A stretch of DNA of 63,508 nt, the filler included, from Sanchytrium tribonematis (taxonomy: Eukaryota), in NCBI GenBank assembly GCA_018985235.1. It is 25 parts of 25 records of this genome, joined end to end, with 100 filler letters (N's around TTAATTAATTAA, not from the genome) between each part and the next. Parts side by side here need not be neighbours in the genome. Positions count along the whole stretch, not along the records: positions 22,054 to 23,286 come from JADGIG010001353.1; 24 more parts are not named here. The stretch is one strand, 5' to 3'. The notes under the pieces are model-generated. The model was not told where the DNA came from. It searched no databases and saw only the letters and a program-made list of their open reading frames with translations. Shown here one piece after another: positions 1 to 62,396 of the stretch. The number at the start of each line of letters is the position of its first letter. Within the stretch, counting starts at the first letter, position 1. Made by a program: the position numbers and the translations under genes.

Positions 1-1503
1 AAACCAGAATATATCCCATCCGGAGTCGTCAAACTCATATTAAGAGTTAATTCATTTTCAGGTAATATCCCTCAATTTCCACCTACTTTAAGCTATTTAG
101 ATTTATCTAATAACCAATTTAGTGGTCCATTACCAGTATTTTCAAAATTAAGTACATTATATGTGTCTTATAATCAATTAAATGGCCCCATTCAATTTTC
201 CACAAACATGATCAATTTCATTGGCAGAAATAACAATTTTAATGGTTCTATTCCTACTATTCCAGATAGTATGGTTACATTACAAATACAAAACAATGCA
301 TTTACTGGAAATATCCCAAATATTGGTCAAAAACAGACTACTTTTAATGTCGCCTATAATTTATTAACTGGCACTGTTCCAGTCCTTCCATCCACTCTAA
401 CCATATTCAATGTGGCTCGCAATCAATTAACAGGCACTATAGATGCATCTAATATCATTAAACCCATTGTATTATTTATTGCAAATAATTTAATCACAAA
501 ATTCATTTTTCCAACTTCCATCAAATTCACTGTTTGTGATTTATCTAGTAATCCACTTGATTATATCGCATCTCTAAGCAATCAATGTAATATGATTCGT
601 TTAAATTCACTAGATTGCCCATTAATCATCAAATTTGCAAATTCATTGAATATGCCAAGTAATTTTATGGGTATTTTAAATGGTAATTGTTGTTCAGATA
701 CTGGTTTAACATGTTCAGGTGGTCTTGTTAATAGTGTGACATCTATTAATTGGAATAAAAGACAATTAAATGGCCAAATAGATGCCAGTTTGATACCAAA
801 CACTGTCACATCCTTGAATCTCAAAAATAATCACTTGAATGGCCCATTAAATTTACCAAATACCATAAGAAATGTCATTATGAGTAATAATTCATTCTCT
901 GGTGACTTTATAGTGGATAATCAAGTGCAATTATTCATAGATTCTAATAAATTCACCAAATTAGTGATTTTAAACACTATTTTGACAGTTGGTTGTAATA
1001 TTAGCAATAATCCATTGGATTATACTTTATTTAGTACATTTAGCCTATTCTGTGGTCAAACTACAATGATTCCTGATCCACCCATCCCTACACGCATTTA
1101 TTATCATACAAAACCAATTAATGAATTAACGAGCAATGATTTTGTATATTCTGATGTATATACACTAGAAATAACAAGTGCATTATCTACAACTACTAAA
1201 ATACCCTCTAGTATTCCAAATATCCCAGATATGCCATTTTCACTAGCTTCCTTTTTTACCAATTATTTGGTGTGGATTCTAGTAGGAGTCGTCTTTTCTA
1301 CATGTATTATAGTCGTATTAATGGGTAAATATTGGAAAGGACCTCAAATCATCACAAAATTCACTCGAAAACACTCTTTTGGATCCCTAGTCACCTTTTC
1401 AAAGAAATCTAAAATGAAACAAGATGATGATGATGAATATGGCATTAAATCACCAGAACCAATATCATCTCCAACACGTAGAACGTTTAAAGTACTTGAA
1501 TAA
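1..1503 (+). CDS. LRR receptor-like membrane protein (5'-partial)
   Basis: Frame 1 is open from base 1. Plant-type LRRs (LxLxxNxFSGxIP), an internal Cys cap (DCP...LNM...NCCSDTGLTC...INW), an S/T-rich stalk, a TM helix (YLVWILVGVVFSTCIIVVLM) and a basic tail. Confidence 0.8.
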   Translation, partial: KPEYIPSGVVKLILRVNSFSGNIPQFPPTLSYLDLSNNQFSGPLPVFSKLSTLYVSYNQLNGPIQFSTNMINFIGRNNNFNGSIPTIPDSMVTLQIQNNAFTGNIPNIGQKQTTFNVAYNLLTGTVPVLPSTLTIFNVARNQLTGTIDASNIIKPIVLFIANNLITKFIFPTSIKFTVCDLSSNPLDYIASLSNQCNMIRLNSLDCPLIIKFANSLNMPSNFMGILNGNCCSDTGLTCSGGLVNSVTSINWNKRQLNGQIDASLIPNTVTSLNLKNNHLNGPLNLPNTIRNVIMSNNSFSGDFIVDNQVQLFIDSNKFTKLVILNTILTVGCNISNNPLDYTLFSTFSLFCGQTTMIPDPPIPTRIYYHTKPINELTSNDFVYSDVYTLEITSALSTTTKIPSSIPNIPDMPFSLASFFTNYLVWILVGVVFSTCIIVVLMGKYWKGPQIITKFTRKHSFGSLVTFSKKSKMKQDDDDEYGIKSPEPISSPTRRTFKVLE

Positions 1504-4696: not shown

Positions 4697-5018
4697 TTTA
4701 ATGAAATGGGGAAACGCGTTTCTTTATAACATGAGATGGCTTTTCTGACCAATGAAATTAGTTGATATTGAACCAATTAGAATTGGAGTTGTGTATCACA
4801 TGAGAGAAAGTGAAACTCTTCCAAATCAAATATTCTGTAAATGATATACCTGATCAAGATATAATGTATATTGTAAGATGCCTTTGCCCAATCGATGGCA
4901 AACATTATTATAGTTTAGAAATGATTACAGGTACTCTTATATATTCCCTTTTGATCAAGGTGGTTTATTTAAGGGATTAACAAAAAAGTTTAGTAAAATA
5001 ATAACATTAATATTTAAA

Positions 5019-14084: not shown

Positions 14085-14439
14085 ATGGAGGTCTCTTCAG
14101 AAAACCCAGCCAATGCTAACAATAGCACCAATGATGACCCTGCAAAACACATTTATTATAGTCCCAAAGTTTATGACGATATATATGAGTATAGACAGGT
14201 TCATTTACCCAAAAAGCTATTTAACCATTTGCCACCAGAATTTCAAGGTTTTTTTGATTTACTTAGACCCGACATCAAGACCAGGTAAAATTAAGCCAAG
14301 GCTGTTATCTGAGGAAGAATTACGCTCAATTGGGGTACAGCAATCAACAGGATGGATAAATTTTGGCATCCATAATCCTGAACCACATATTCTTTTATTT
14401 CGTAGGAAACACAATGGCAACCGAGAAATCTCAAAGTAA
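14085..14439 (+). CDS. CKS1: Cyclin-dependent kinase regulatory subunit (2 exons: 14085-14247, 14267-14439)
   Basis: IYYSPK..DD.YEYR.V.LPK in exon 1 and LLSEEE.R.IGVQQS.GW...[11 protein letters not shown] in exon 2, joined by removing a 19-nt intron. Confidence 0.92.
14248..14266 (+). other. 19-nt spliceosomal intron
   Basis: GTTTTTTTGATTTACTTAG. Removal joins the two halves of CKS1 in frame. Confidence 0.88.
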
Positions 14440-15139: not shown

Positions 15140-16603
15140 TTACTTCTTTTTGATTGACTGTTCATGGACATCCTGTGCTCTTCCACTCGGGTCAGCATCA
15201 CATCCCTATATTAAAATCCAATACCCAGTCTACTCTTGGTACCCACAAATCTACACTTTCACAGCAACAAGGCTGAGGAAATAATTGTTCAAATAGCATA
15301 CGATACCAGTAGCCTTCTTTAGTTGTTGGAGTATCATGCGAGAATCGGATATGTCGATTTTTGAAGACTGCATCCGTAATTTTCTTGTTTGCGACTTCTT
15401 TTAGAGTATCAATCCATGAGTATCCCACTCCGTCACTAAACTGTTCCTTCTGACGATAGAGTACATTTTGAGGCAAAAAAGGATCATCTGGAGTATCGAA
15501 CGCTTTTCTTAAAATGTATTTTTCCATTCGTTCCTTTGAATGCATTTTTTCAGATGGTTCGATAGTCATTGACAAGTCCAAAAATGATTTATCAAGAAAA
15601 GGAACTCGAGCTTCAACTCCCCAAGCCATGGTTGATTTGTTTGCTCTCAAACAGTCGGAAGAATGAAGGTTGTTCACTCTAGTGACCAACTCTTTTTGCA
15701 AATCTTCGGCGGATGGAGCTTTGTTAAAATACAAATAACCACCAAATACTTCGTCGCTTCCTTCTCCACTAAGTACCATTTTGACGCCATGTGCTTTAAT
15801 TTTTCTAGACATTAGGTACATTGGAGTGCTTGCTCTTATTGTGGTAACATCGTAGGTTTCCAAATGATAAATTACATCACGAATTGCATCAATACCATCT
15901 TGAAGTGTGTATGTGAAAGCATGATGCTTTGTGTGCAAATATTCACTTACTTGTTGAGCTGCTTTTAGATCAGGGGATCCTACAAGCCCTACCGAGAAAG
16001 TGTGAAGCTGATCTGAATAGAGGGATTCGATATTTTCGTTGAATGGACTAGTGGATAGTTTTCCATTTTTGTGATCTCTTAACAATCTACATACAATTGC
16101 ACATATTAGCGAACTGTCAAGACCACCGCTTAAAAGAACTCCAAATGGAACCTGACACATTAATCTTTTCTTAACACTATCAATCAGACTTTCTCTCAGA
16201 ATGTCTAGGTCCAATTTGTTGAATTTTTTAGTTGTTAGCCAATGAGGATTGAAATACTTCACAATATTTTCACTCGAGTCTGTGTGTTTGTTATCATGCT
16301 CCAGATAACTTCCAGGCGGAAAAGCTATAATCCTATCACTGATCTGGTTTAAACCTTTCAATTCGCTACTTAAATAGTATTCATTGTCATTGTAGTTATA
16401 GCTTAAATATAATGGTGTAATTCCAATTGGGTCCCTGGCAGCAAAAGTTCGTTTCTTTTCTTTATCATATAAAATGAAAGAAAACATTCCATCCAGTTCA
16501 TTCATCATTAAATTTAAACCGTCTTTTTGATCCTTGTAATGCTCGTATAAATATATAATAATATGACAATCGCTTGAGAGTTCATCTTTGATCTTGTATT
16601 TAT
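15140..16603 (-). CDS. Glutamine-dependent asparagine synthetase (5'-partial; last exon 15205-15140)
   Basis: LDGMF, ARDPIGITPLY, LLSGGLDSS, LETYDVTTIRASTPM and SGEGSDE. After the intron it continues WGCDADPSGRAQDVH. Confidence 0.95.
15206..15224 (-). other. 19-nt spliceosomal intron
   Basis: GTATTGGATTTTAATATAG. Removal restores the conserved DWGC..DPSGRA terminus. Confidence 0.9.
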
Positions 16604-17031: not shown

Positions 17032-17943
17032 TCAATAGAGTAATTGAGTTCTTGAAGTTGTTTTGATTGTTTTCATTTTTCGAAATGGTGTTTTAGTGAC
17101 GACATAGACAATGACAAGGAAACTAATTAGTATTCTTAGGACTAAAGACAGCGTTATTGTTATTGGAGATATAATTGTTTCAAAATGAGTAGATATATTG
17201 GGACTTTTAGTGGTAGTTTGTAAATTAACAAGGGTGCATCTTATCAGAATAGATTCTGTTGCTTTTAAAGTCATTCTGGTTGATGGTGTGATGATATTTC
17301 TAGTCACTATAGAACGAAGATGTGGGAAAGCATCAAGAGACTCAATTAATTCGGAGGAAACAAGTGGCAAATCAATAGATTTTTCATATGATGATTCAAC
17401 AGAGGTTTTTGAAGCATCTAGATAAGTATATGCATCTGTTCTTGTTGGAGTACCAATAATAGCAATAGTCGATGAGCTTTTTAAACTAGTCCAACTCAAT
17501 GAATATAATCCATTTTGAGAACAAATACTAGGAGATGGCAAATTAGAGACATCTGCTAATGGATTATTACCAATATCACATTTGTTTGCCAATATAGCAG
17601 AATAATCAGTGATTTTTAAGCCTGTAAACAAATTATCACTGATAAATAATTGTCTGGGTCTATTTGCACTAAATGTCCCAGTGAATTGGTTGCCATAGAC
17701 ATAAATAGATGTTAAAGTACTTGGCATTGTAGGTAGCTTCCCCGTAAATAAGTTATTACCTACTCCTAATTGCTGCAAATTACTTGGTAAATTCGCAATA
17801 TTTCCAGTTAACAAATTATTGCCAAGATACAATTGTTGAAAGATTGCAGGGAAGTTAGGGACTGTACCAGTTAACGTGTTGTAATTGACTCCAAACTCAA
17901 TCATGTTAGTGGGATAATTCAATGGCAAAGAACCAGATAATCG
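17032..17943 (-). CDS. LRR receptor-like membrane protein (5'-partial)
   Basis: LRRs (LQQLGVGNNLFTGKLP), C-cap CDIGNNPL, S/T stalk and TM (LVLRILISFLVIVYVV). Confidence 0.8.
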   Translation of the reverse strand, partial: RLSGSLPLNYPTNMIEFGVNYNTLTGTVPNFPAIFQQLYLGNNLLTGNIANLPSNLQQLGVGNNLFTGKLPTMPSTLTSIYVYGNQFTGTFSANRPRQLFISDNLFTGLKITDYSAILANKCDIGNNPLADVSNLPSPSICSQNGLYSLSWTSLKSSSTIAIIGTPTRTDAYTYLDASKTSVESSYEKSIDLPLVSSELIESLDAFPHLRSIVTRNIITPSTRMTLKATESILIRCTLVNLQTTTKSPNISTHFETIISPITITLSLVLRILISFLVIVYVVTKTPFRKMKTIKTTSRTQLLY

Positions 17944-18890: not shown

Positions 18891-19760
18891 AAAGGATTAA
18901 GACTATCTATCAGGGAAGTCAAAACATGCTTTGACTTGCTAAAAAGTCTTTCACAAATGAGGTTGGGTTTAAATGAGATAAATCTATATTGGCTTTCAAA
19001 ATTCTTTTTTTTGGTTTGTACTTGCTTTTAAAGCTTGTTGAACAAAATTTAATTCAGAACTGCTTGGTTCGCTAACAATTTCAAATGATGGGCTTAAACG
19101 AAAAAGCTGGACAGTAAGGTTTTAGTTTAAATTTTATACTACGTATAATAAGTTCTCGTTTAAAATTTTATTTGAATTGACTCAAATCTTACACCTAATG
19201 CTACATATGCGAGTTGTGTTGATATTTGTAAGATTTGATTTTCCTAATAATTTTTAAAACATGAATTTTGTTGGCGATGANNNNNNNNNNNNNNNNNNNN
19301 NNNNNNNNNNNNNNNNNNNNNNNNTTAATTAATTAANNNNNNNNNNNNNNNNNNNNNNNNNNNNNNNNNNNNNNNNNNNNTTAAATCTTTTTGACTGCAC
19401 TTTGTTAAAAGTGAATTTGTTAAATCTGCACAATTCGAACAATAACTGGATCTTATGGCAGAATTTGGAATAGAATTAGAATTTATACATGTAAGCGCAG
19501 CGATATATGCAGTGGAACAAGTATTTGAGAGTGAAGAAGTTGTCATGTTATAAAATTTGGAGCAACTTTTTCTTTATTTTATTACTGACCAATCACAGAA
19601 TAAAGTGATAAACTGCAAGGTAATTATCTGATTGCAAATATACAATTGGAAGGATAAAATTAGATAATCTTGCCCAAAATCAAAATTAATCCAGAGAATT
19701 GAGAGCAAAATCGTTGTAGTCAGAATATTGATATCATTTCTTATCTAATTTCCAATCTAT

Positions 19761-20617
19761 TTATTCCAATTTTACCTCATTCAAAGCATCTTCCAGTTCC
19801 TGAATTATTTGTTTGATTGTGAATTTCTTTCTTTGTTTGTTAAATCTGCTCATATCTTGCCAAATTTGTTTATTTGTCAATAATTCATGTAAATAAATAC
19901 TCATTTCCTCACTGATACTCTCCAAATTCCCTTCATTTACTAAATAACCAGATTGTTTCATAATAATTGTTTCTTTGACACCTCCAGAATTCATTCCAAT
20001 TACAGGAATTCCATAGCTCATGGCTTCAATGGGGACTATTCCAAAGTGTTCATGACTGGGTGTATAGATAATTGCTTTTGATTTGCTTAAAATAAATTGT
20101 TTTTGCAAATTCGTGCAAGATTTAATAAATGTCACAGATTTAGATAAATCAATTTCTGACACTTCTACACCATTAAATACATTGTAATCTAGTTGTAATT
20201 CATTGCATATATCTATTAAATGCTCCAATGTGGTCAAATTCTCTTGTAAATTCACATCAAATCCACCAACCAATAATAATTTAATATTAGAAATTGGCAA
20301 ATTTGAATGCTTCATTCTATTTATTAGTTTATAATAGGCATAAATAGCGCGTTGAATTTGTTTTTTACCCTCAAATCTGTTTATACTGCTAATCACTTGA
20401 TAATTATAGGCAAATAATTCATTTCCAGTATATTTGATATATTCTGTCCCTGGATATAATACTTGGATATTCTTGCTTCCAAATGTATTTTTATAAATTT
20501 GACTGGTGTATTGGCTATTTACAAATACTTTAAATGCCATATTTGTAGAAATACGCTCTAATTGATCAAATGGCCATCTGTAAATCATTTTCAATAAATG
20601 ATCACGCCTAGTCAATA
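19761..20617 (-). CDS. ALG2: Alpha-1,3/1,6-mannosyltransferase (5'-partial)
   Basis: VNSQYT, SINRFEGKK, YTPSHEHFGIVPIEAM and NSGGVKET. Confidence 0.85.
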
Positions 20618-20717: not shown

Positions 20718-20935
20718 TCATAGTTTCTAAAGTTATAAATCAACTTATACTCTCCAGAATAGAATGTATGAAGACCAGTGGCGACACTTTTAAAGTAGTT
20801 TTGAACAAAACCAGTAGCAACCAATTCCGTTGCTTCTACTTGATTTTGTGTCAATTTCACTGGATTTCTCTCACAAATCGACAAAGGTCTGACAGATTCT
20901 GACATGAATCCATTCAACACTGTAATAAACAACAT
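20718..20935 (-). CDS. Possible NTF2-like protein N-terminus (3'-truncated)
   Basis: VATGFVQNYF...LHTFY resembles the first NTF2-like helices, with promoter-like motifs upstream. Confidence 0.35.
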
Positions 20936-21159: not shown

Positions 21160-21590
21160 TCAAATGAAATTTCTTTTTCTAAATTAGTATGTAATACCTT
21201 GGGTGCATTCTGTGCTTTATTAAAAATGTAACCCCAAGTATCAGGCAAATAACCTTAGCACCGACGTACATGTATCCAAGATTAGTAGAATCACCTAAAA
21301 CAGAAGATGTCGTTATTAAAACTTTTTTGTGACCTCCAAATGAAACAGTATCAAAGTGATGATTTACACCTAAAACATAATCTCCCTTCTTGAGGGAACT
21401 TGTCCGCCTCCAAAACTCATTAAAATTAGAAAAAGGGGCTACTCTTGTCCAAACCAGAGGATCTTAATATTCTTGCAAATTTGGAATAGTGCCGTCATTG
21501 TAAAGTCCATCTTTGCATTTATAGCTCCAATTTTGGTGGTGGAACAACATCTGCAGCGGAGTATTTTGTTTTTCCGAATCTTTTTTTTGA
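21160..21590 (-). pseudogene. CDC50/LEM3 flippase subunit pseudogene fragment
   Basis: KKRFGKTKY...VPPP/WS...IPNLQEY*D...W.RVA.F..F, LKKGDY...SFGGHKKVLITTSSVLG...LGYMY...FLIKHRMHPR. One frameshift and one stop. 5' boundary approximate. Confidence 0.75.
21179..21197 (-). other. 19-nt intron retained in the CDC50 pseudogene
   Basis: GTATTACATACTAATTTAG interrupting HPR/K, with a CTAAT branch motif. Confidence 0.65.
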
Positions 21591-22053: not shown

Positions 22054-23286
22054 GGCTCATTACATCGGTTTTTTGGTAAAAATACAGTCCTAGCAACCGG
22101 AGGTTATGGTAGAGCTTATTTTTCATGCACTTCAGCGCATACTTGTACTGGAGATGGAACTGCTATGGTTGCAAGAGCTGGTTTGCCATTACAAGATATG
22201 GAATTTGTTCAATTTCATCCTACCGGAATATATGGTGCTGGTTGTTTAATTACTGAGGGCTGCAGAGGAGAAGGCGGTATATTACTAAATAGCGAGGGAG
22301 AACCATTTATGAGAAGATATGCTCCAGTTGCTAAGGATTTAGCTAGTCGAGATGTGGTTAGTAGATCTATGACTATCGAAATCAAAGAAGGACGCGGCTG
22401 CGGTCCTCAAAAAGATCACATTTATTTACAGCTTAGTCATTTGCCTAAAGAAGTGCTTCATGAGAGGCTGCCGGGAATTTCAGAGACTGCTGCAATATTT
22501 GCTGGTGTAGATGTCACAAAGGAACCAATTCCTATTTTGCCAACAGTTCATTATAATATGGGTGGAATTCCTACAAAATACACCGTAATTTAATTTTATT
22601 TAGGGTCAAGTTATTGGTGTTGATAAAGACGGAAAAGACATCATCATTCCAGGACTTTATGCTGCTGGAGAAGCTGCTTGTGTAAGTGTTCATGGAGCTA
22701 ATAGACTAGGTGCCAATTCTTTGCTTGATATCGTTGTATTTGGACGTGCCTGTGCGCTTCATATTGCAGAGAATAATAAGCCAAATACAAACGAAAAGGC
22801 ATCTTCTGACTTGGGGGTGGCCTCATTTAAAGATCTTGCTTCTTTGAAGGAGAAGAAAGGAAAGGTTGGTGCTGCTAAAATAAGACAGAATATGCAAAAA
22901 GTTATGCAGAGTGATGCTGCTGTGTTCAGAACTCAGTCCACTCTAGAAGCAGGTTGCAAATCTATCTCTGAAGTTGCAAAGTCTTTCGACGGTGTAGTCG
23001 TCAATGACAAAAGCAATGCCTGGAACACAGATTTAGTAGAAACCGTGGAATTGCGCAATTTACTCACAAATGCTGTTCAAACTATGTATTCTGCCGAAGC
23101 TAGAAAAGAAAGTAGAGGAGCTCACGCTAGAGATGATTTTCAAGAAAGAAATGATAAAGAATGGATGAAGCACACTCTATCGTGGCACGACGAAAAAACT
23201 GGAGAAGTCACTCTCAAGTACCGCGAGGTTGCTATGAAAACTTTGGATGAAAAAGAATGCAAATCCGTTCCTCCATTTAAGCGAGT
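22054..23286 (+). CDS. SDH1: Succinate dehydrogenase flavoprotein subunit (partial, one intron)
   Basis: [38 protein letters not shown]...[15 protein letters not shown] and [10 protein letters not shown]. Confidence 0.97.
22585..22603 (+). other. 19-nt spliceosomal intron
   Basis: GTAATTTAATTTTATTTAG, phase 0, containing an in-frame stop. Removal gives [13 protein letters not shown]. Confidence 0.93.
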
Positions 23287-23386: not shown

Positions 23387-24616
23387 ATTTAGGATTTCAG
23401 TTGACTCAATCAGGAATTAAGCCTAATCCAAAGAAAGTGTCTTGTATTTTGGCACTTCACCAGCCCCGAAATGTGTCAGAATTAAGGAGCCAATTGGGTA
23501 TGATAAACTTTTTTAGGCGCTTTATACCACAATGTGCTGGTATATTAGCACCCCTAACCCAATTAACCAAGAAATCAGTTAAGTTTGAATGGACAATTGA
23601 ACATCAACGTCGTTTAGACAGTTGTAAAAAGATGCTGGCTTCTAAAACCTTATTAGTTTACCCATTATTCGACAAGCCATTTCACATTTACTGTGATGCA
23701 AGTGAATATGGTCTTGGGGTGTGTATTTTTCAGTACGATGAGGAAAATATTCCCAATCCGATCTATTTTTATTCGAGAAAATTCAATCCTGCTCAATTGC
23801 GGTACACTGTTGTACATAAAGAAGCATTGGCAGTGATTTCTATTCTTAAACATCTCAGAAAGTTGTTGTATGGGTGTGATTTGCGAATTTACACTGACAG
23901 TTTGAACTTGTCATATTTGCAAACATCAAATAGTTTAAAATTACAGCGGTACTTTATGGAAATAATGGATTTCAACCCCACAGTTGAGCATATTAGTGGA
24001 AAATCGAATGTTGTGGCAGATTTATTGTCTCGCATGAACTTCCAACAATCATTTTTAGAATCACTCGCTATTGAGGACTTTCCATTATCTACACAATATA
24101 TACGAACTGCACAACTAGCAGATTCTGATCTTCAAACCCATTTGCTTCAACTTGAAAGAGACCAGAATTCAAGGAAAAATGAATTTGAATCAAATGAAAA
24201 CCAAAGTAGTGAATATTGTGTCAAATTGATTGAAAATAATGTTGTACTGTGCAAAAAGGATTCATTTCAGATGATTATTCCACAAAATTTGAGAAAGGAT
24301 ATACTTGTTTGGGCACATGATTTGTTTGGTCACCCAGGACAAGGACGAATGTATAATACATTAAAATCCTACATCTATTGGATGGGATTACAACAAGATA
24401 TCAAACAATTTGTCAAGAAATGCCACATTTGTCAAACTGGAAAACAAAATAAGAAGAATTATGGCAAATTGCACAAAACCACAGTTGATATGGACATAAA
24501 TCCATTCCAAGTTGTTGCAATTGATGTGGTTGGTCCCCTTAGTAGTGTATCTGAGGATGATGGGATTGTATTTACTCATATTTTAACAATTATTGACATT
24601 AAAACACGATTTATTG
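23387..24616 (+). mobile_element. Ty3/gypsy LTR retrotransposon pol fragment (RT thumb, RNase H, integrase)
   Basis: LGMINFFRRFI, YCDASEYGLG, KEALAV, HISGKSNVVADLLSR, H..GH...CHIC zinc finger and AIDVVGP. ORF uninterrupted. Confidence 0.93.
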
Positions 24617-26042: not shown

Positions 26043-26790
26043 TGAATTTACCAATAAAGCAAACCACATTTGAACAAGATTGCCAAAATATTAATGTATT
26101 CTACATTTACTCTAATAAACTGTTGCCCACGCCATCAGATTGGCCCCAAAATCACAAAGTTGTTGGAAATTTAGAATTACCAGACTCTCCCAAGCCACTT
26201 CCAGATGCTTTATTACAATTTATCAATCAACACAAGAATATTCCGATTATTTATATTGGATTAGGTAGTATGTTGAGTGTCGTATTTAAGCCAGATGAAG
26301 TAGAAGCGTGTTTAAATAAATTAGCAAATGGGGTCTTTCTGACCATTAAAAATGGTAATAAGCTCGCCTGTGTCTTACACACTGTGGCTAGTCAATCTGT
26401 GACCCCATTAGAATCTACTAATCCCAATTTATTCATCTTAAATGAACCCGTGGCGCATTCTCAATTATTCCCCAAAATGTCCATGATTCTTCATCACGGT
26501 GGAATGGGTACGACACACACTGGTTTATTAGCTGGTAAACCATTCTACCTTGTGGCCCTACTAGTGATCAACCATTTTGGCAAGATGTTGTTTTAAAACG
26601 TGGCTGTGGCCCTAAAGGATTCCCAATTAGTGAATTGGATCCTATGAAATTGAGTACTTGTTTGATGGATGGATTGAATCATTTGGATTTTTACAGTGAA
26701 AATGCAAGAGCCATGAGCAAATCAATGCAAACAGAACAAGGGGCGAAATATATTGTTAAAAACATGGCAAATCTATTAAATATGGAATAA
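26043..26790 (+). CDS. GT1 glycosyltransferase (sterol glucosyltransferase-like) C-terminus, frameshifted near 26542
   Basis: PSDWP, IYIGLGSM, H..LFP...HHGGMGTT...AGKP, then in a shifted frame ILP...DQPFW...G.GP to TAA at 26790. Confidence 0.75.
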
Positions 26791-28413: not shown

Positions 28414-28593
28414 TTATTGATCATAAACAGTTATAAAATCAATTTTAGAATTTGGATCTTCATATACGGTAATAAACTCGTCCTCTTGTGGTTTGTATTC
28501 AGTAATAAATTTTAATGCGCGGTCGTCATAAGTGGTTATAAAATCTACTGGTTCTTCTTTGTATGTCGTTATAAATTCGAGAGGTTTGTCTTC
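28414..28593 (-). CDS. 3' end of a protein with FITxY repeats
   Basis: EDKPLEFITTYKEEPVDFITTYDDRALKFITEYKPQEDEFITVYEDPNSKIDFITVYDQ*. Confidence 0.65.
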   Translation of the reverse strand, partial: EDKPLEFITTYKEEPVDFITTYDDRALKFITEYKPQEDEFITVYEDPNSKIDFITVYDQ

Positions 28594-29111: not shown

Positions 29112-30200
29112 ATGGTAATGGTCTCGGAGTTCACCTCTAATATACAAATACTCAAAGACAGTAAAAAAACATACGAATTTGATGTGGGAACTGAATATGC
29201 GTGTCATCAAATTATTGGAAATGGTGCATATGGAAGTGTTTGTTCCGCAACTCATCGTTCAGGTACTAAAGTAGCAATTAAAAAGATTTCTCCATTTCAA
29301 CACCAACTTTTTATGGTCAGAACAATTCGTGAAATTCGAATTTTAAAGCACTTTCAACACGAAAACATTGTGCAAATTCTATCCACTATAGATCCGATCA
29401 AAGATAAATTTAAGGATATTTATCTAGTTGAAGAATTAATGGAAACTGATTTGTATCGAGTTTTGCGCACTCAGAAATTATCTGATGAGCATTGCCAATA
29501 TTTATTATATCAAGTTCTGCGTGGACTAAAATGCATTCACTCCGCTAACATTTTACATAGAGATTTAAAGCCAAGTAATTTGTTGATCAATAGCAACTGC
29601 GAGCTCAAAATTTGCGATTTTGGTCTTGCAAGACTTCAAACTGATTTTGATAAAGAATCACAAATGACTGAATATGTGGCTACTCGATGGTATAGAGCAC
29701 CCGAGATTATGCTGAGCTTGAAACAATACTCTAAAGCTATTGATGTTTGGAGCGTGGGATGTATCTTGGCGGAAATGTTAAGCAACAAACCATTATTTCC
29801 TGGAAAGGATTATCATCACCAACTAATTTTAATTCTAGATGTGCTCGGAACGCCCACTCATGACGATTTTGAATCAATCCAGTCAAAAAGAGCCCGGGAT
29901 TATGTCGCTTCTTTACCTTTCAAGCCTAAACAACCACTGGAACTTTTATTTTCTAATGCTTCCGAATTAGCTATTGACATGCTTAAGAAGCTTCTAATAT
30001 TTCACCCCGAAAAGCGAATAACTGTGGAGGAAGCATTAGCTCACCCATATTTAAAAGCGTATCATGATGAATCAGATGAACCTGTTACTCTTCCTATGAG
30101 TGATGTGTTTGATGTTGACAGATTCAAGGATGAATTGACACCGGATCAATTGAGTGAACTTCTCTACACTGAAGTGGTATCATATCCTTCCAGGCTATAA
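29112..30200 (+). CDS. MAP kinase, ERK/Fus3/Kss1 type
   Basis: GNGAYG, VAIKK, HRDLKPSN, DFG and MTEYVATRWYRAPE with a TEY activation loop. Confidence 0.96.
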   Translation: MVMVSEFTSNIQILKDSKKTYEFDVGTEYACHQIIGNGAYGSVCSATHRSGTKVAIKKISPFQHQLFMVRTIREIRILKHFQHENIVQILSTIDPIKDKFKDIYLVEELMETDLYRVLRTQKLSDEHCQYLLYQVLRGLKCIHSANILHRDLKPSNLLINSNCELKICDFGLARLQTDFDKESQMTEYVATRWYRAPEIMLSLKQYSKAIDVWSVGCILAEMLSNKPLFPGKDYHHQLILILDVLGTPTHDDFESIQSKRARDYVASLPFKPKQPLELLFSNASELAIDMLKKLLIFHPEKRITVEEALAHPYLKAYHDESDEPVTLPMSDVFDVDRFKDELTPDQLSELLYTEVVSYPSRL

Positions 30201-32964: not shown

Positions 32965-34405
32965 TTATGCGTGTAGTCCTACAGAGACTTGGGGATATCT
33001 TTGAACCAAAAGATCATAGAATTCAGGATTTGATTGTCTCAATGCTTCTGGATCTTCTGCAAGACAAACAAAAGTTGTAGCAATACCAGCGTTGATGACA
33101 GTTCCGACATTTGAGAATATAAAGACTCCTAAAAAGCAAGAAACTATTGCCCATAGCCAGGGAAACACATTGTCTGGAACACCACCATAAGCAATTGCAT
33201 AAATTATTAGTGGTATTACGAAGCAAACGAGTGCAACGAAGAAGGTACCTAAAAATATTACCCTATCAATCAAAATCTCATTAATAATGACATCCAGACC
33301 TCTAGATTTTAGCAGATTCCATGTATCTTTAGCCGCAGTGCAGTAATCTTTCCCGTAAATAGCCACCTGGGTAAATGCGTAGTAATTAAAACTAAATTAA
33401 ATAGAATTACAATTCCAATAATCCTTCAAAACATCTAACAATACATTCTAAACAGCACAGAATGACGAAGGCAACTGGAGTATCACTACGTTGTCTTGCA
33501 TAGTTTAACAATTGGCGAATCATTTGCACAATAGTAATTAGCAACGCCCCAAAACAAACAGAACCAAATGAAGTGGTCATTGCACGCTTCAAGGAAGAGA
33601 ATGTGGGAGAACTTGGCATATTGTCAGCTAAAAAATAATAGGTAGCGTATACACCGCAAACAGCAACATGCACAAGATATCGAATAACATTCATAGCCCA
33701 GTAAGAACTAAACATTCCATAGATGACACAAAAAACAAAAGAAGGATTTTTTCCATTATAAATGAGTTGTCCATTGGAATCTTTTGATAAAGCAAATTTG
33801 ATGTAATAAGACATAAATGCTCCAGCAGAAAACCCACTCCAAATTAAACTTAATATGTCACCCGCAAATACTGTATAGATAGTAGCTGGATATTTTCTAG
33901 TGACTTTAACTACAGTACTTAACAACGCGGCCAAAAAAGGGATTTGAGATCTAATTCCAAACCACATAAATACAATAATCACCAAAACGATAACATTGAT
34001 TATGGCCATTACTATATTGAAAGTAAATAAAATAATTGTTGAAATAGCTAGTATGACAAAATAAAACCAGAACGAAAATTTAACCAAAGCTTCAGGAAAT
34101 CTTTGCATGCAAGATAAGTACACGATTGTCATACCAATTGCGAATGCAAATCCAACAAATAAACTAGCAATTCCAGCAGCGGAAAACGGGTTGTCTTCAG
34201 AACTACCAGATTTGGTATTTCCTGAGTCAGGGTGTATTATCCACTCCCATTTTGCAGTTGAATACGCCCAAATAGATAATGCCAAAAAGGCAATGGTATT
34301 CATCCAAAAAAGAATTGCGGCCCAAAGATCTTGCGCTTTTGGTTTTTGTTGCACATTATCAACTAGTTGGCTATTATCATGCTTTTCCTTCACAACTTGC
34401 ACCAT
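32965..34405 (-). CDS. PNS1: Choline transporter-like protein (CTL/SLC44), 2 exons
   Basis: DLWAAILF, SSLKRAMTTSFGSVCFG, spliced LLEFFNYYAFTQVAIYGK and TTFVCLAEDP. Confidence 0.88.
33392..33410 (-). other. 19-nt spliceosomal intron
   Basis: GTAATTCTATTTAATTTAG, phase 2. Removal gives LLEF-FNYYAF. Confidence 0.92.
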
Positions 34406-35445: not shown

Positions 35446-36625
35446 TTATTGTGCATTTTTAAATACGTAAAATCCTTCTTCAATGGTTAATCCTTCGGCC
35501 TTGACTTTAACACCATCAACTTCTTCTTCTTGTCTAGCATTTATATTCCAAACCCTTGTCATTACCTTACACAGCTCCAATAATTCTTCATCCTCCGCAT
35601 CTTTCACGTACTTGAAGAATGCTGGTTGCCAGTCTTCTTCAGTTTCTTTTCTCTCCTTACGAAGTCTGCGTTGTTCCTCTTCTACTTCTGATTTGAATTT
35701 GTTTGCAGCAGAAAAATTTCCATCTTTTAAAGCTTGAGTGACCTTTCCCCAAACTTGATTTGTTTCTAGTGGACCCTGTTCTTCCAAAGGCTTGGGAGTC
35801 AATGTTTCTCGGTTTTCTTTTATGGCATCAAAAAAAGTACGCTCAGAAGTTCCGTTCGGACTAGCAGATGTATACTTAATTTTTGATTCCTCAGTCCATT
35901 TCCCGGAAATCGTGGCAAAACTATCTTTTTGACTATTGAATAATTCAGCTTTGAACGTGTGATATTGTCCGGAAAACCACGCTTTTGGTATAAATTCAAA
36001 ATGAGCCCAATGTCCGCTCTTGCTAACAATTTTTACTTGACCCATTAACTCAATAAAAACATTTGCACTAAACAAACCTCTGAGTGCAATCTGAGGCAAT
36101 GACACAAGATACAAATCTTGTGGCGTTTTGATGACTATACGCCCATATGGTATAACCTAAATAAATAGAAATTACTTGGATCCATGTTCCTTTGAATGAA
36201 GACTTTTGTTTTACTTGTCCAGTCATTTCCACATCATTCCCCAATATATGGAAAGAAGTAATTGGGGGATGGTGTGAAGTTTGTTCCGCACTCAATTGAA
36301 TTCCATCAATTGAGGCAAAAAATTGTTCACCCAAAATTGGATTATAAGGCTTCTTCTCATTTCCACGACTTGCGTAACTCCCAAATAACTGAGATATAAA
36401 CCATCTCGCAACGTTAACAAGTCTCTCTTCGGGATCATTACAATTCATGCTCTTGTAATACTTTGGGTGGTCCAAATAATAAGATGAATACTCTGTCATG
36501 CTTAGCCCATTCAACATAAATGCGGGGGAGGTGATTGACGACAGGTCTCCTGTAAATGATGTTAACGATCCTAAAAATTTAACAAATTCGCTCTTTTGAT
36601 CGCTCTTGGATTCAGTTGGAGACAT
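35446..36625 (-). CDS. KES1: Oxysterol-binding protein, Osh4/Kes1 type (2 exons)
   Basis: GDLSSITSPAF, EKKPYNPILGEQF, EQTSHHPP and KSEVEEEQRRLRK. Confidence 0.9.
36157..36175 (-). other. 19-nt spliceosomal intron
   Basis: GTAATTTCTATTTATTTAG, phase 0. Joins WIQ to VIPYGRIVI and the downstream OSBP frame. Confidence 0.9.
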
Positions 36626-41540: not shown

Positions 41541-44376
41541 ATGTCAAAATTAGAGCAGCTCTTTGATAGAAATGCTAACGTAGATTCGGAACTTGAGCTA
41601 GAGAGCTCAGATCAACTTAATACCCTTCAGATACCCAAGCCTTTAAATGCATTTCAAAACACTTATAATTCTAATCAATCATTTCAATCTCGACATGCTA
41701 GCGTTCAAAGCGATACCAGTAATTTAATACTTTTTGATCAAGGTAATGACAAAGATAACATGGCAAATTATTTATCAACTAGATCAATAGACACATTTGT
41801 GAGTTCCACACCACAGGTAAATCAAGATGTGCCAAAAACGCAATTAAAGTGGATTCTTAATACATGGAGTGGCGTATTTATACCCTCAATACACGCATGC
41901 ATAGGTATTACAATATTTCTAAGATTACCTTGGATTATTGGATGGAGCGGCGTCACAATGAGCTTGATTTATTTACTCATTGGGCAAACGCTTATTGGTT
42001 TGACATGTACATCTGTCGCAGCAATTGCTTCAAATGGATTTAAAAGTGGCGGCGGTCCTTATTATATGATATCAAGAAGCCTGGGCAAAGAAATCGGAGT
42101 TTCTGTTGGTTTAATATTATGGCTTAGTCTTTGTGTATCATCAACAATATATATAAGTGGTTCGGCCTTAATATTGTCACGATTTTTATTTCCAGCTATG
42201 TCATTTAAAGATCTTTCTTGGAATACTCACGTTTATGGATCAGTTCTTCTTTTATTATTGACTCCATCTCAATTTTTGAATAAGAAGCATCTTTACTTTC
42301 TAAACATGACATTGTTCGCGTTTGTTATTCTAAGTGTTCTTAGTTTGATGATTGGTCTTTTATCTAATGAGCCAAGATATGATGGAATTCAAAAATTGCC
42401 AGGAAATTTGTCTCAAAATATGGAACCATCGTTTCTTGATTTTGAGTCGGACTTACTTGTCGCTGGCGGTCCATTTATGTACTTTTTCGCGGTCTTTTTC
42501 CCTTCTATTTCGGGAATCATACCGGGTTTAAATAGAAGTGGTTCCTTAAGACATCCAGCTGAGTCTTTAAAAATAGGGTTGTTTTCAAATTTGTTAATTA
42601 CGACTATTCTTTATACCATAATAATTCTACTGCTTGGGTGTGTCGTCAATCAGGACTTGCTTCAGCGTCAATACTCTAATAACAGTGACAGGCTTGTAAT
42701 TGCAATGGTTTCATGGCCAACAGACGTAGTTCAACTTGTATTAATATTTTTTTCTGCAATTGGAGCTGCAATATATTGTTTCTCTGGTGCTAATTCACTT
42801 TTAGGATCAGTTGCCAACGACGGCATCATTCCAATTTTAAAAAATCTGAATGCTACTAAAAAAAGTTCTTTGATTTGGAGAACCATTTTAGTCACAATGA
42901 TTGTTACATTAATATTTCTTCAAATTGGGAGCTTTGACATTTTATCAAAAGCCACCTCTTTGATAAATTTACTTACTTTTTGTTTCCTTAATTGGAGTAC
43001 AGCACTTTTGGGGTTTTTGAAAACACCTGGTTGGAGACCCTCATTCAAGTTTTATCATTGGTCATCGTCTTTATTGGGTGGAATTTTAAGTCTCGGTCTA
43101 ATGTTCGCATTTGACTGGAGAATCGCTGTTGGCGCAGTCTTGTTCATGGGCGTTTTAATTGGATATGTTCAATATTATGGTGCACTTGTTGACTGGGGCG
43201 ATGCTATCACAGCTCTAAATCTACAAATCAGCCAACGAAATCTTGTAAAGCTAGAAAAGTACTCTGATACTAATGTTAAAAATTGGCGCCCCCAATTATT
43301 AGGATTTGCTCCCATTAATCATGAGCATGATTCTTTGCCTGCGATATTGTCATTCTTATCGCAAATCAAAAAAGGTCGTGGTCTAACAATTATATTGAGT
43401 GTTATCATCACAGAGGATTTGAATAAAGTATACTCAGAAAAGCAAAATGAGAAGCTCCAACAGCTTTTGAAAAGCAAAATGGTGGACCATGGTATTAATG
43501 GATTCGCAGAAGTCTTAGTGTCAAGGAGTTTAGTTGATGGTATTGCACATGCAGTACAATTATCTGGACTTGGGAAGCTTTCGCCTAATACTGTTGTCAT
43601 GGGGTACATGTCCACAAGAGACAACATGGAAAAATGCGAGCAATATGTGGAAGCAATCAAGGCAGTTTTAATTTGCAAAAAGGGTCTTGTATTGCTGAAA
43701 TCGGTGTCTGAGTTTCCGACTGCACATCAATTACAAACAGGATACATAGATGTATATTGGATTAGACATGATGGCGGAATGTTGAGCATTCTTCCGCATC
43801 TGCTTAAAAAACACCACATATGGAGAAAATGTAAACTAAGAATATTTGCTCTAGCCGAACTTACAGACAATAGTGTGGAAATTGAACGAAACTTAAAAGA
43901 AGCATTGTTGGAACTAAGAATTGAGGCTTACAGTGAAGTGATAGAGCTAGGGGATTCTGATATAAGCGAATTTACTTATGAGAGAACGATGCAGCTACAA
44001 GAACGCCAAGAGTACTTGAAGAAAATAAGACATGATATGGGTAGAAATCGTAAAAATTCCCTTCATTTGTTTATTCGTGATGAGGCTAGTTCTTTGGCTA
44101 TATCGCCCTACATCAAGCAGCAAAATAAGAAATTGTATTTGTAATTAATTAAGGGATAAAAGTAAAATTGAATACATGAATACTTCAGTGAAAGTGAATT
44201 CAATAATGAAGAAACGATCTTCAAAGTCTCCATTGGTTTTTTGCAATTTACCAATTCCAAATGGTTCTCAATCTGCTTTAGACTACCTAGAATATGTTGA
44301 CGTATTATGCACCGATCTCAAACGAGTCATTTTGGTTAAGGGCGCTGGCTTCGAAGTTGTCACCAGTTCATTTTAA
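41541..44376 (+). CDS. Cation-chloride cotransporter (SLC12, KCC-like), 2 exons
   Basis: GVFIP...IFLRL.W, GGGPYYMISRSLG, FFPS.SG, PGWRPSFKFY, KNWRPQ, IDVYWI.HDGGML, and a terminal MNTSVKVN...LVKGAG.EVVT. Confidence 0.92.
44135..44153 (+). other. 19-nt spliceosomal intron
   Basis: GTATTTGTAATTAATTAAG, phase 2. Attaches the conserved SLC12 C-terminal segment in frame. Confidence 0.85.
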
Positions 44377-47078: not shown

Positions 47079-47226
47079 GAGTATACGATGTTCGTCCGCC
47101 TTATATGGAAAAAACAAACGGCGCGACGGTAGTATTTGATTGGGCACATACCAGATGTGCAAAATGTGAAATCGATAGCCTTAAATGTCAAACCGATATG
47201 CCAAAATCATGAATAAAAAAGGCAAA

Positions 47227-47344
47227 AGCTACAGCACATGGGATTCCCACCCCGTCTCCGATGGCAGTACTAACCATGCCAGCACCTGCTTAACTTCTGA
47301 AATTTAACAGGATCAGGTGTTTCCAGGTGTGTATGGCCGTAGCT
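47227..47344 (-). rRNA. 5S ribosomal RNA
   Basis: AGCTACGGCCATAC...CCTGATCC...GAAGTTAAGC...TTAGTACT...GGGAATCCCATGTGCTGTAGCT. 118 nt, paired termini and a downstream T run. Confidence 0.95.
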
Positions 47345-55813: not shown

Positions 55814-57016
55814 CACCATTGTCGCACTAAGCAGCTGCAATTTTGTGAAATTAATTGGCCAAGTGCCTCAATATTTAAAATATTTAGATATTTCCATGAA
55901 CAAGATTAGTGGTAAGTTACCAGAATTTTCTCAATTAAAGGGACTCGTAGTCTCTTTTAATCAATTTAGTGGTCCAGTCCCTCAAAACTTCCCAATTGCA
56001 ACAAAAGTTTTATTAAATAACAACAATTTTAATGGTACATTGCCACAAGCCCCTAATTCTTTTCAGTATTCTGCAAATGACAATCAATTTAGTGGACCTG
56101 TGGACATTCCAAGTTCTTCCTTTTTATATTACGAGGTACAAAATAATCTTTTAAGTGGACCAATCACTGATTTTCAGCGAATTTATTCGGGTGTTTTCCG
56201 CAATAATTTATTAAGTGGTACCATTCCAGTAATTCCTAATGGTGTAAGTGGTTTAGATTTGTCATTCAACTTATTTACAAATCTAACGGGTCCATTTCCA
56301 GCTATAGGAATGCCAAATCAAGTCAATTCTAATCAAATTAGTGGTGAAATTGCAATGTTACAATTGACTTATACGAAATATTTGTTTCTTTACAACAATT
56401 CCATTTCTAATATCTATATTGCAGCACCAAATACGCTTCAATATTGTGATATTACCAAAAATCCCATTTTAAATTATACTAATTTGGGGAATTGTGTAAA
56501 TAATTCAGATTCTTTTTTGAAACTAAATGTGATGACTTCTGAGATTACGACTATTGCAAGAGCTTCTACACCATTCTCAACGATCATTTCAGTTACATCT
56601 GCAGCAGAAGCAGCAATTACTAGCTCATCATTAGTATTAACAAATTCTCCATCTTCTGCCACGACTCAGCCATTCGCAAATGAAAATAAGGTCTTGTCAG
56701 TGGCATTTACCACTGAAATAACTGAATATTTGAATACTGGAATTGAAATACCAGGTATATTTTATTTATTTAGAAATCATTTTGACCAGAAGGTTGTTTT
56801 TCAAAACTACAGCAAGTACTTCTCTTGATGTAGGAAGCACCTATTTATTTGTAAACTCAACAAGAGGATTACAAACGAAATATGCTAATTTAACATTCAA
56901 ACCGAGTTATAAATTGAATGAATTTGTAAATTTGAGTGTGCTTTCTATTGTGAAATTGGTGATTAATTCAATGATCATTGTGATATTACCATCGTTTATG
57001 AAATTTGAACGAAAGA
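55814..57016 (+). CDS. LRR receptor-like membrane protein (partial, one intron)
   Basis: LRRs (LDISMNKISGKLP), C-cap CDITKNPI and an S/T stalk. The TM (VLSIVKLVINSMIIVIL) lies in the second exon. Confidence 0.8.
56755..56773 (+). other. 19-nt spliceosomal intron
   Basis: GTATATTTTATTTATTTAG, phase 1. Links the LRR/stalk ORF to the TM-encoding ORF. Confidence 0.82.
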
Positions 57017-57117: not shown

Positions 57118-57497
57118 CCCATCATACCAATTTCTGATTTTAACGAAGGCATATCATTTGCAAAATCTCAGTATTTCATTATTCATTTAGGCCAAAACCA
57201 TTGGCAGCGTATGTTTTTTCACACGATAAAGCACTCCAAAATCAGGTATTAGACAATATCTGCGCTGGAAATACTATGATTAATGACGTTCTTATGCATA
57301 TGGGCTATTTGACTTTACCTTTTGGTGGTTGTGGAAATTCTGGCCAAGGAAGCTACCATGGAAAGTTTGGGTTTGATCAATTTACTCATAGTAGAACGGT
57401 ATTGCATCGTCCGATTATTGATGAGCCCATAATGAACATTCGCTATCCGCCACTCACAGAATCTAAGGTCAATTGGTTAAATTTTCTTTTAGGGTAA
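57118..57497 (+). CDS. Aldehyde dehydrogenase, ALDH3/HFD1-like C-terminus (5'-partial, one intron)
   Basis: PII...SQ|PKPLAAYVFS, LPFGGCGNSGQGSYHGKFGFDQFTH and RYPP. Confidence 0.9.
57171..57190 (+). other. 20-nt spliceosomal intron
   Basis: GTATTTCATTATTCATTTAG, phase 2. Gives FAKSQPKPLA. Confidence 0.85.
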
Positions 57498-57530: not shown

Positions 57531-58318
57531 TTAAAAACAGCATCTCCACCAAGATTTTTTGGGTTCACTAACTTTTTCCTCCTCTACCGCTTTTTCCACA
57601 TGGGGCGTCGTTTGCTAAATGAGATAAAAATACTTGCAAATCTTTGAAGGCTTGGACTTTGAGCCAATCAAAGTCTAAATTAAGTTTTGTCTCCTTCGAA
57701 AACCCACTATTTTGAGTATTTGTAGATATAGTGCTTCCACCACCATTGCTTTTAAGCATGTTATCGAATAATTTGTATAAATATTGGTAATCTGGATCTT
57801 CTTCAAAAGCAAGCCTTCTAGCATAGGTCATGTACTCCGACAATTCTTTAGGTAAATTTGCACATAGTTCAGATATTGGGGTTGCTTGTTTTTTCTCTCC
57901 GATTTTTTCGTACTTTTGCCTATTGGTAGCAGCTTTAAGACCCTGCCACGGCAATGAGCCTCTTAAAAAGTAAACAAAAACATGTCCCAGTGCCTCTATG
58001 TCATCTCTACGACTCTGTTCTCTACCCAAATGTGTGTGAATAGACATATACCTAGCAGTGCCACTAAGGGACTTTCGTTCCCTGTAAGGAATGTGTTGCT
58101 TTGTTCTTGGATCTCTGTAATGTTTGCACATTCCAAAATCAAGCAAAAATACAATATGTTGGGAAGAACCTCCTGGCCTTCCAATTAAAAAATTATCTGG
58201 TTTTATATCTCTATATATTAAATGTTTGTTGTGAAGCAGTTCAATTCTTTTAATCATCTGTATAGCTAAGTACGCCGTTGTTTGTATGGTGAATTGCCTG
58301 TTGCACATATCAAATAGA
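57531..58318 (-). CDS. Casein kinase I, Yck1/2 (gamma-like) type (5'-partial; last exon 57614-57531)
   Basis: [29 protein letters not shown] and LPWQGLKA. The spliced C-terminus ends KKSWWRCCF*. Confidence 0.93.
57615..57633 (-). other. 19-nt spliceosomal intron
   Basis: GTATTTTTATCTCATTTAG, phase 0. Exposes a terminal Cys-Cys motif typical of Yck-type CK1. Confidence 0.85.
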
Positions 58319-62213: not shown

Positions 62214-62396
62214 NNNNNNNNNNNNNNNNNNNNNNNNNNNNNNNNNNNNNNNNNNNNTTAATTAATTAANNNNNNNNNNNNNNNNNNNNNNNNNNNNNNN
62301 NNNNNNNNNNNNNAAAAGTGGTCACACAATTTGATACGTGAATCACGTATAGGATGACCAAAATCGTATAAATATACCAAATAGCAACAAATACAA

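What the first reader, a model, noticed from the sequence alone, without database searches (positions are those of the whole stretch)
22585..22603. Branch point fused to the 3' splice site: invariant YTNAYWWAG with A at -6
Seen: aligned at their 3' ends, all 11 introns have Y at -9, T at -8, A at -6 and Y at -5 (TTTACTTAG, TTAATATAG, CTAATTTAG, TTTATTTAG x3, TTAATTTAG x2, TTAATTAAG, TTCATTTAG, CTCATTTAG). Ten of 11 start GTA. Established: YTNAY is the U2 branch consensus, and Stentor tiny introns also place an A six nt from the 3' end. Inference: the lariat loop is about 14 nt, there is no room for a polypyrimidine tract, and U1 and U2 could barely bind simultaneously. This suggests a ruler-like mechanism convergent with ciliates.
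Basis: partly seen in the sequence, partly recalled or inferred. Interest (0 to 1): 0.85.

Follow-up and report, generated by a model that had tools for sequence, protein, structure and literature searches.

The report
Nineteen-base introns in a parasitic fungus
Genes of a little-studied fungal parasite of algae (a sanchytrid, likely Sanchytrium) are interrupted by inserts of only 19-20 bases that all carry an A six bases from their end; they are likely spliceosomal introns, shorter than any fungal introns found in my literature searches, with that A predicted to be the branch point, although no RNA evidence was obtained.

Summary
The window is 25 joined contigs of a sanchytrid fungus (closest named relative Amoeboradix gromovi; likely Sanchytrium tribonematis). 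Homologues fix five junctions to the residue, including 22585-22603 in SDHA; four are likely; two are weak. One intron position is shared with Amoeboradix, and an environmental relative's protein tail implies a further 19-nt intron with A at -6. Only the A at -6 beats an AT-matched background (11 of 11, corrected p about 2e-6; 0.014 for the five firm ones). T-8, Y-9 and Y-5 do not, so 'invariant YTNAY' is overstated. The A is likely the branch point (14-nt loop, 5-nt tail), anchored to the 3' end. This geometry is known (Stentor, Yarrowia lipolytica; wider spacing in Giardia and Trichomonas), so it is not ciliate-specific. What appears new is the lineage: uniform 19-nt introns in a fungus whose published proteomes were predicted without introns and are truncated at them. 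Amoeboradix annotations keep U1-70K, U2AF65/35 and SF1 but list no Slu7 or Prp18. No RNA evidence. The scan had not noted this before; one unchecked note describes 26-34 nt Rozella introns.

The parts
22585..22603 (+). 19-nt phase-0 GT-AG intron in the succinate dehydrogenase flavoprotein (SDHA) gene; the finding itself; junction fixed
   Evidence: The 5 closest of 80 loci (88-89% identity) run through this point with no insertion; removing 19 nt gives an open 404-aa frame; only GT-AG pair that joins the frames nearby
22598..22598 (+). A at -6 (+14), predicted branch adenosine
   Evidence: Invariant in 11 of 11 introns, corrected p 2e-6; function inferred
22054..22584 (+). SDHA upstream exon (cut by contig start)
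   Evidence: Pfam FAD_binding_2 187-378
22604..23286 (+). SDHA downstream exon (cut by contig end)
   Evidence: Pfam FAD_binding_2 383-414 and Succ_DH_flav_C
33392..33410 (-). 19-nt phase-2 intron, choline-transporter-like (Pns1) gene; junction fixed; position shared with Amoeboradix
   Evidence: Pfam 1-210 then 212-326; A. gromovi P0135 and unnamed P0137 ORFs stop at the same residue as the window's read-through, P0134 and P0136 run through
36157..36175 (-). 19-nt phase-0 intron, oxysterol-binding protein gene; junction fixed
   Evidence: Gap-free junction against 3 of 3 sanchytrid-like orthologues incl. A. gromovi P0129
49016..49034 (+). 19-nt phase-1 intron, septin gene; junction fixed
   Evidence: Both exon pieces meet at the same PDB residue (e.g. 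4kv9_A 262, 6upa_B 238, 2qag_B 263); Pfam 230/231
57171..57190 (+). 20-nt phase-2 intron, aldehyde dehydrogenase gene; junction fixed; has C at +14 and A at +15 (= -6)
   Evidence: Gap-free alignment across the junction to a bacterial ALDH
15206..15224 (-). 19-nt phase-0 intron, asparagine synthetase gene; likely
   Evidence: Downstream piece carries the conserved C-terminal motif of E. coli AsnB; a 28-nt alternative donor is not excluded
44135..44153 (+). 19-nt phase-2 intron, SLC12 cation-chloride cotransporter gene; likely
   Evidence: SLC12 domain continues in the next frame; alternatives of 13, 22 and 28 nt exist
14248..14266 (+). 19-nt phase-1 intron, Cks1 gene (the one GTT start); likely
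   Evidence: CKS domain split over two frames; alternatives of 37 and 16 nt not excluded
57615..57633 (-). 19-nt phase-0 intron, casein kinase 1 gene; likely
   Evidence: Removal gives a C-terminus with a cysteine pair as in yeast Yck1/2 (recalled, not aligned); other pairs possible
56755..56773 (+). 19-nt phase-1 candidate intron, LRR gene; weak
   Evidence: Joins a 313-codon and an 80-codon frame; no homologue test possible
21179..21197 (-). 19-nt candidate intron at the 3' end of a Cdc50 relic; weak
   Evidence: Lies past the Pfam domain end; the gene fragment has an in-frame stop upstream

Best explanation
These 19-20 base GT-AG inserts are likely U2-type spliceosomal introns of a sanchytrid fungus, and the invariant A six bases from the 3' end is predicted to be the branch point, so splicing would give a 14-base lariat loop and a 5-base tail. 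Shown: the inserts, their exact boundaries in five genes, their near-uniform length and the enrichment of that one A. Inferred: the 5' GTA is read by U1/U6 with little further pairing (+5 G is absent in 11 of 11); the U-rich stretch before the A pairs loosely with U2 GUAGUA, as proposed for Stentor; the first AG after the branch A docks as the 3' splice site at a fixed 3-nt spacing. Specificity would come from spacing (length 19, A-to-AG distance) more than from sequence. The single 20-nt intron keeps the A at -6 rather than +14, so the A is likely positioned from the 3' end. With so short a branch-to-AG distance the exon-ligation factors Slu7 and Prp18 would be dispensable and may have been lost.
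For: Exact junctions by homology in 5 genes. A-6 in 11 of 11, the only column beyond composition. Motif peak only at 19 nt, non-A control flat. Pns1 intron position and GT+stop start shared with A. gromovi and one unnamed relative. Out of sample: the C-terminal tail of unnamed protein P0136 is explained only by a phase-0 intron of 19 nt (of 5 frame-compatible lengths tried) at a different site, and its codons force T at -9 and A at -6. No internal AG in 11 of 11. A. gromovi's published annotation lists Prp8, Brr2, SF3B1, Prp16/22, Prp17, Cwc25, Isy1, U1-70K, Luc7, U2AF35, U2AF65 and SF1/BBP, and has no rows for Slu7 or Prp18 by name or identifier (PMC8371127 supplement 4). Slu7 is dispensable in yeast when the branch-to-3' site distance is under 9 nt (bioRxiv 10.1101/212811, passage). 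Same A position in Stentor and Y. lipolytica.
Against: No RNA reads, spliced junctions or lariats were seen. A motif-blind gene finder recovered only 4 of 11 exactly among 39 calls, the rest mostly noise. The flanking branch consensus is weak (2-6 of 7 matches to TACTAAC). The 3'-anchoring rests on one 20-nt intron. The out-of-sample A has about a 1-in-4 chance prior. The Slu7/Prp18 blank comes from an automatic table covering about half the proteins, which also lacks rows for U1C, Prp28, Yju2 and Prp40, and the identifiers searched were recalled. snRNAs could not be examined (no genome held; none in the window).
Confidence: 0.75

Rival explanations
1. The inserts are spliceosomal introns, but A-6 is part of an extended 3' splice-site signal read by protein (U2AF35/U2AF65 or SF1), as with the extended acceptor of C. 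elegans, and branching occurs at varying upstream As.
For: U2AF35, U2AF65 and SF1/BBP are annotated in A. gromovi; positions around the A are not enriched beyond T-richness; A is common at -10 (7 of 11) and -7 (5 of 11).
Against: No other column is all-A; the CK1 and Cks1 introns offer only one other internal A past +3 (at +9 or +10), giving loops at or below Stentor's; the position equals the branch A of the TACTAAC motif in Y. lipolytica.
Confidence: 0.1
2. The A is the branch point but is measured from the 5' end (+14), a minimum-loop ruler like the pattern described for myxozoans, and its distance to the AG looks fixed only because nearly all introns are 19 nt.
For: 10 of 11 introns are 19 nt, so +14 and -6 coincide; in myxozoans and Dicyema the conserved As move away from the AG as introns lengthen (PMC13644364).
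Against: The homology-fixed 20-nt intron has C at +14 and A at +15.
Confidence: 0.1
3. The inserts are not spliced by the spliceosome: they are assembly errors, pseudogene lesions, or are removed by a protein endonuclease/ligase route like the 19-20 nt HAC1 intron of fungi (recalled).
For: No RNA evidence; one candidate sits in a relic gene; the window has at least one plain frameshift without an insert (about 26539).
Against: 11 unrelated sequences share GT, AG, length and A-6; they interrupt core genes (SDHA, septin, Cks1); one position is conserved across genera; a spliceosome is annotated in the sister genus; HAC1-type introns do not follow GT-AG (recalled).
Confidence: 0.05

Closest known systems
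Tiny introns of Stentor coeruleus (heterotrich ciliates; PMC9505925, parts 1-3 of 6 read)
   Same: GUA start, AG end, AU-rich, near-uniform length, weak branch consensus but an almost invariant A six nt from the 3' end that moves with the 3' end; 5-nt tail; about a fifth of genes carry introns.
   Different: 15-16 nt (10-11 nt loop) against 19-20 nt (14-15 nt loop); Stentor's main class is a multiple of three, these are not; unrelated lineage; Stentor's are annotated genome-wide, these rest on DNA and protein homology.
Yarrowia lipolytica introns with constrained branch-AG distance (PMC2483917, passages)
   Same: A fungus; TACTAAC-NN-AG puts the branch A at -6; no 3' pyrimidine tract.
   Different: Long introns (median about 204 nt) with a strong ACTAAC consensus in about 71%; here 19 nt and only the A is conserved.
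Fused branch point and 3' splice site of Giardia, Trichomonas, Spironucleus (PMC6679479, PMC2483917, passages)
   Same: Fixed branch-to-AG spacing; moving the motif abolishes splicing in T. vaginalis.
   Different: Wider spacing, strong extended consensus, very few introns, longer introns.
Mikrocytos mackini 16-17 nt introns (PMC10245619, passages)
   Same: Parasite with a very narrow intron length range.
   Different: Highly conserved intron sequence, 224 introns, 17-19 spliceosomal proteins and no U1 snRNA found; the sanchytrid annotation keeps U1 proteins, U2AF and SF1.
Microsporidian miniature introns (Encephalitozoon cuniculi; PMC2483917, PMC6349667, passages) and myxozoan/dicyemid short introns (PMC13644364, parts 1-2 of 3)
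   Same: Short introns in reduced parasites; E. cuniculi has CTAAYTT near the 3' end; myxozoans reduce the donor to GTa.
   Different: Longer (about 25-36 nt; 22-27 nt) and less uniform; E. cuniculi has strong donors; myxozoan As track the 5' end.
Chlorarachniophyte nucleomorph introns (Bigelowiella natans; 18-21 nt recalled)
   Same: Similar length, AT-rich, GT(A) donor.
   Different: Reported to show no branch-point signature (PMC2483917); relic nucleus.

Membership tests
U2-type (major) spliceosomal introns | GT-AG boundaries whose removal restores the reading frame | tested here: met
   5 of 11 exact by homology, 4 of 11 likely, 2 of 11 weak
U2-type (major) spliceosomal introns | Removed from the RNA | not testable with these tools
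   No sequencing runs could be obtained
U2-type (major) spliceosomal introns | Branch adenosine forming a lariat | tested here: inconclusive
   Invariant A at -6 but no lariat mapping
U2-type (major) spliceosomal introns | Host encodes a major spliceosome | tested here: inconclusive
   Core proteins annotated in the sister genus; snRNAs and this genome not examined
Ultra-short uniform introns (Stentor/Mikrocytos/nucleomorph kind) | Narrow length range under about 25 nt | tested here: met
   10 of 11 are 19 nt, 1 is 20 nt; motif peak only at 19; no further split Pfam domain among 269 of 272 ORFs scanned; window only
Ultra-short uniform introns (Stentor type) | A six nt from the 3' end with weak surrounding consensus | tested here: met
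Yarrowia/Giardia-type fused strong branch motif | Strong conserved (W)CTRAY branch consensus | tested here: not met
   2-6 of 7 matches to TACTAAC; flanking columns not enriched
Yarrowia/Giardia-type fused strong branch motif | Fixed branch-to-AG distance | tested here: met
   A at -6 in 11 of 11, taking the A as branch point
U12-type (minor) introns | RTATCCTTT donor and TCCTTAAC branch (recalled consensus) | tested here: not met
   Donor columns +4 to +8 are T/A-rich with no CC

The most novel reading that the evidence does not exclude
Sanchytriomycota independently evolved the shortest introns in the fungal kingdom: roughly two thousand near-uniform 19-nt introns per genome, defined by spacing alone, spliced by a spliceosome that keeps U1, U2AF and SF1 but has dropped the exon-ligation factors Slu7 and Prp18 because the 3' AG sits only 3 nt past the branch A; the published proteomes are broken at these introns, so some inferred gene losses in this phylum are artefacts.
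Probability: 0.3. Interest if true: 0.8.

Novelty: new member of a known kind. Interest (0 to 1): 0.58.

Why it matters
It adds a fungal, independent origin of near-minimal introns, converging on the same A-to-AG spacing as Stentor and Yarrowia; that points to a lower geometric limit set by the spliceosome's active site rather than by lineage. It offers a comparison of loop size (10-11 nt in Stentor, 14-15 nt here) at constant tail length, and a testable link between short branch-to-AG distance and loss of Slu7/Prp18. Practically, sanchytrid proteins were predicted as plain ORFs on genomic contigs (PMC8371127), and 3 of 7 read-through ORFs looked up are in EukProt as truncated proteins, plus the downstream OSBP fragment; re-annotation with a 19-nt intron model could change gene-content and gene-loss counts for this phylum.

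Tried and rejected
No whole genome was held, so genome-wide logos, snRNAs and splicing proteins of this organism could not be checked; no RNA evidence was obtained. The one metagenome scan (SDHA query) gave 80 loci, none sanchytrid-like in GC (the 5 closest are 44-53% GC), useful only as intronless controls. Scans of viral contigs and prokaryote genomes for sanchytrid loci found none. The profile search added no new sanchytrid; of 170 Pns1 homologues, 156 span the junction, 3 with a gap near it, and only P0135 and P0137 stop at the window's position, so an older origin of that intron is neither shown nor excluded. Rfam found only a 5S rRNA. A motif-blind Viterbi gene finder was too noisy to define the set: 39 calls, 4 exact matches, several fusing separate genes. 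PDB searches with 21 and 23-aa exon pieces found nothing. Other 19-nt AT-rich GT-AG stretches (62366-62384, 28430-28448, 19757-19775, 51084-51102, 52555-52573) were set aside because no frame or homologue needs them; 62366-62384 also has A at -6 and cannot be ruled out. These five were left out of the counts. In-frame 18 or 21-nt introns would escape frame-based detection; the motif scan shows no excess there (1 vs 0.6, 0 vs 0.5). Rejected readings: myxozoan, ciliate or nucleomorph origin; U12-type introns; a strong YTNAY consensus.

Full report
Source. The window is 25 contigs joined by 24 N-spacers, mostly 29-41% GC, gene-dense, standard code. The MAP kinase at 29112-30197 is 89% identical to a cluster that contains an Amoeboradix gromovi protein, while other named fungi reach at most 65%; OSBP and Pns1 are 70% and 59% identical to EukProt proteins of the same naming style, the OSBP one named as A. 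gromovi. The window's own proteins are held by EukProt. So this is a member of Sanchytriomycota other than A. gromovi, likely Sanchytrium tribonematis (inference; published GC 34.6%, 11.2 Mb, PMC8371127 section 6). No whole genome was available and no RNA evidence was obtained.

The intron at the given coordinates. 22585-22603 interrupts SDHA; read-through stops after two codons. The 5 closest of 80 metagenome loci (88-89% identity, taxonomy not determined) run through this point with no insertion, and removing exactly 19 nt gives a stop-free 404-aa frame that aligns as one block to three of them. It is the only GT-AG pair near the break that joins the frames.

The other ten. All were located. 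Junctions fixed to the residue: Pns1 (Pfam 210/212, relatives P0134 and P0136), OSBP (3 of 3 orthologues gap-free), septin (both pieces meet at one PDB residue), ALDH (20 nt; gap-free to a bacterial enzyme). Likely but not unique: asparagine synthetase, SLC12, Cks1, CK1 (alternatives listed; the CK1 C-terminal argument is recalled, not aligned). Weak: an LRR gene with no homologue, and a Cdc50 relic with an upstream in-frame stop. To look for introns that break the pattern I ran a motif-blind gene finder (39 calls, 4 exact matches to the 11, mostly noise) and scanned 269 of 272 candidate ORFs with Pfam; no further split domain appeared. Five other 19-nt candidates that no frame requires were left out.

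Is the motif more than chance? Interiors are 62% T and 30% A. A at -6 in 11 of 11 has p 1.6e-7 (2.2e-6 corrected; 0 of 100,000 permutations); in the 9 firm-or-likely introns an all-A column arises in 5 of 100,000 permutations, in the 5 firm ones in 1.4%. T-8 (corrected 0.13), Y-9 and Y-5 are not beyond composition; matches to TACTAAC are 2-6 of 7; +5 G is absent in all. Across the window the full pattern peaks only at 19 nt (9 vs 0.4 expected) while the non-A control does not (2 vs 1.5). So the signal is a positioned A in a U-rich 19-mer, not a strong YTNAY consensus.

Evidence from relatives. Proteins of relatives were called as plain ORFs, so they read into introns. A. gromovi P0135 and unnamed P0137 end at the same residue as the window's unspliced Pns1, which means a phase-2 intron starting GT plus stop at the same place. 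Unnamed P0136 lacks that intron but its tail is the shifted reading of the downstream exon; of five frame-compatible lengths only 19 nt can end in AG, and the codons force T at -9 and A at -6. This is one out-of-sample case, with about a one-in-four chance for the A alone. The OSBP intron is absent in all three relatives, so positions turn over within the group.

Mechanism. Most likely these are U2-type introns with the branch A at -6: 14-nt loop, 5-nt tail, first AG used (no internal AG in 11 of 11). The 20-nt intron has C at +14 and A at +15, favouring a 3'-anchored position. Three bases separate the A from the AG, so there is no downstream pyrimidine tract, but most fungi lack one anyway (PMC2483917, passages). 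The published automatic annotation of A. gromovi (3,755 rows held; the S. tribonematis sheet is cut to 171 rows) lists U1-70K (both species), Luc7, U2AF35, U2AF65, SF1/BBP, SF3B1, Prp8, Brr2, Prp16/22, Prp17, Cwc25 and Isy1, and has no rows for Slu7, Prp18, U1C, Prp28, Yju2 or Prp40 by the names and recalled identifiers tried. Absence there is weak evidence, as only about half of the proteins were annotated and genes are split at introns. It fits, though, that Slu7 is dispensable below 9 nt in yeast (bioRxiv 10.1101/212811, passage).

Comparison with what is known. A at -6 is described for Stentor and follows from the 2-nt branch-AG spacing of Y. lipolytica; fused branch/acceptor motifs are described for Giardia, Trichomonas and Spironucleus (PMC6679479, passages). 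Uniform ultra-short introns are described for Mikrocytos (16-17 nt; PMC10245619, passages), myxozoans and Dicyema (22-27 nt medians; PMC13644364, parts 1-2 of 3) and microsporidia (about 25-36 nt). The architecture is therefore a known kind. Sanchytrid introns appear undescribed: searches for Sanchytrium or Amoeboradix with 'intron' gave 8 and 9 listings, seen as listings except two: in the genome paper and the TPPP paper the word occurs only in a reference title, and proteins were predicted with TransDecoder on contigs. Searches for tiny or smallest fungal introns and passages of a 644-genome fungal intron survey (PMC8476143) showed no 19-nt fungal introns. The library is incomplete, and the genome paper's main supplementary PDF and one spreadsheet could not be read, so 'shortest in Fungi' is provisional.

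Scale. 11 introns in 61.1 kb of sequence would extrapolate to about 2,000 per 11.2-Mb genome (inference from one window), roughly one per five or six genes.

Verdict. Observation partly confirmed (A-6 real, rest of the motif compositional); interpretation partly supported; new member of a known kind; interest 0.58.

Noticed in passing
window 26045-26790 (+), break near 26539: Sterol glucosyltransferase-like gene changes frame with no GT-AG insert; looks like a one-base indel (sequencing error or pseudogene), judged from a recalled family motif.
   Followed up: partly
window about 21160-21560 (-): Cdc50 relic: 3' part only, in-frame stop near 21465, divergent conserved motifs, yet it carries a well-formed 19-nt intron-like sequence with the best branch consensus of the set (6 of 7).
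   Followed up: partly
window 58419-59617 and 59718-60916: Two contigs with 49-52% GC (one with reverse transcriptase/RNase H hits) against about 34% elsewhere; possibly host or contaminant retroelement DNA. A 35%-GC Gypsy-like pol fragment lies at 23387-24616.
   Followed up: no
P0128, P0129, P0130 (OSBP orthologues): All three end abruptly about 17 residues before the window's protein does, with tails that look like read-through into another intron absent from the window; in P0130 the tail would fit an 18 or 21-nt intron with A at -6 if its stop is TAG.
   Followed up: partly
PMC8371127 supplement 4, A. gromovi rows 1135-1136: SF1/BBP is annotated on two adjacent ORFs of one contig, probably one gene split by an unannotated intron.
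   Followed up: no
window 1-1503, 17035-17943, 55815-57015: Three LRR genes with a serine/threonine-rich stalk and a hydrophobic segment near the C-terminus; likely members of an expanded surface-protein family.
   Followed up: no
window 47226-47344 (-): 5S rRNA gene between protein-coding genes.
   Followed up: no
window 2237-4723 (-): Ankyrin-repeat protein of about 820 aa with a C-terminal P-loop GTPase-like region and coiled coil.
   Followed up: no
window 62366-62384 (+) and 20727-20750 (-): Two further intron-like stretches near contig ends (19 nt with A at -6 but no T-8; 18 or 24 nt in frame) that cannot be tested.
   Followed up: partly
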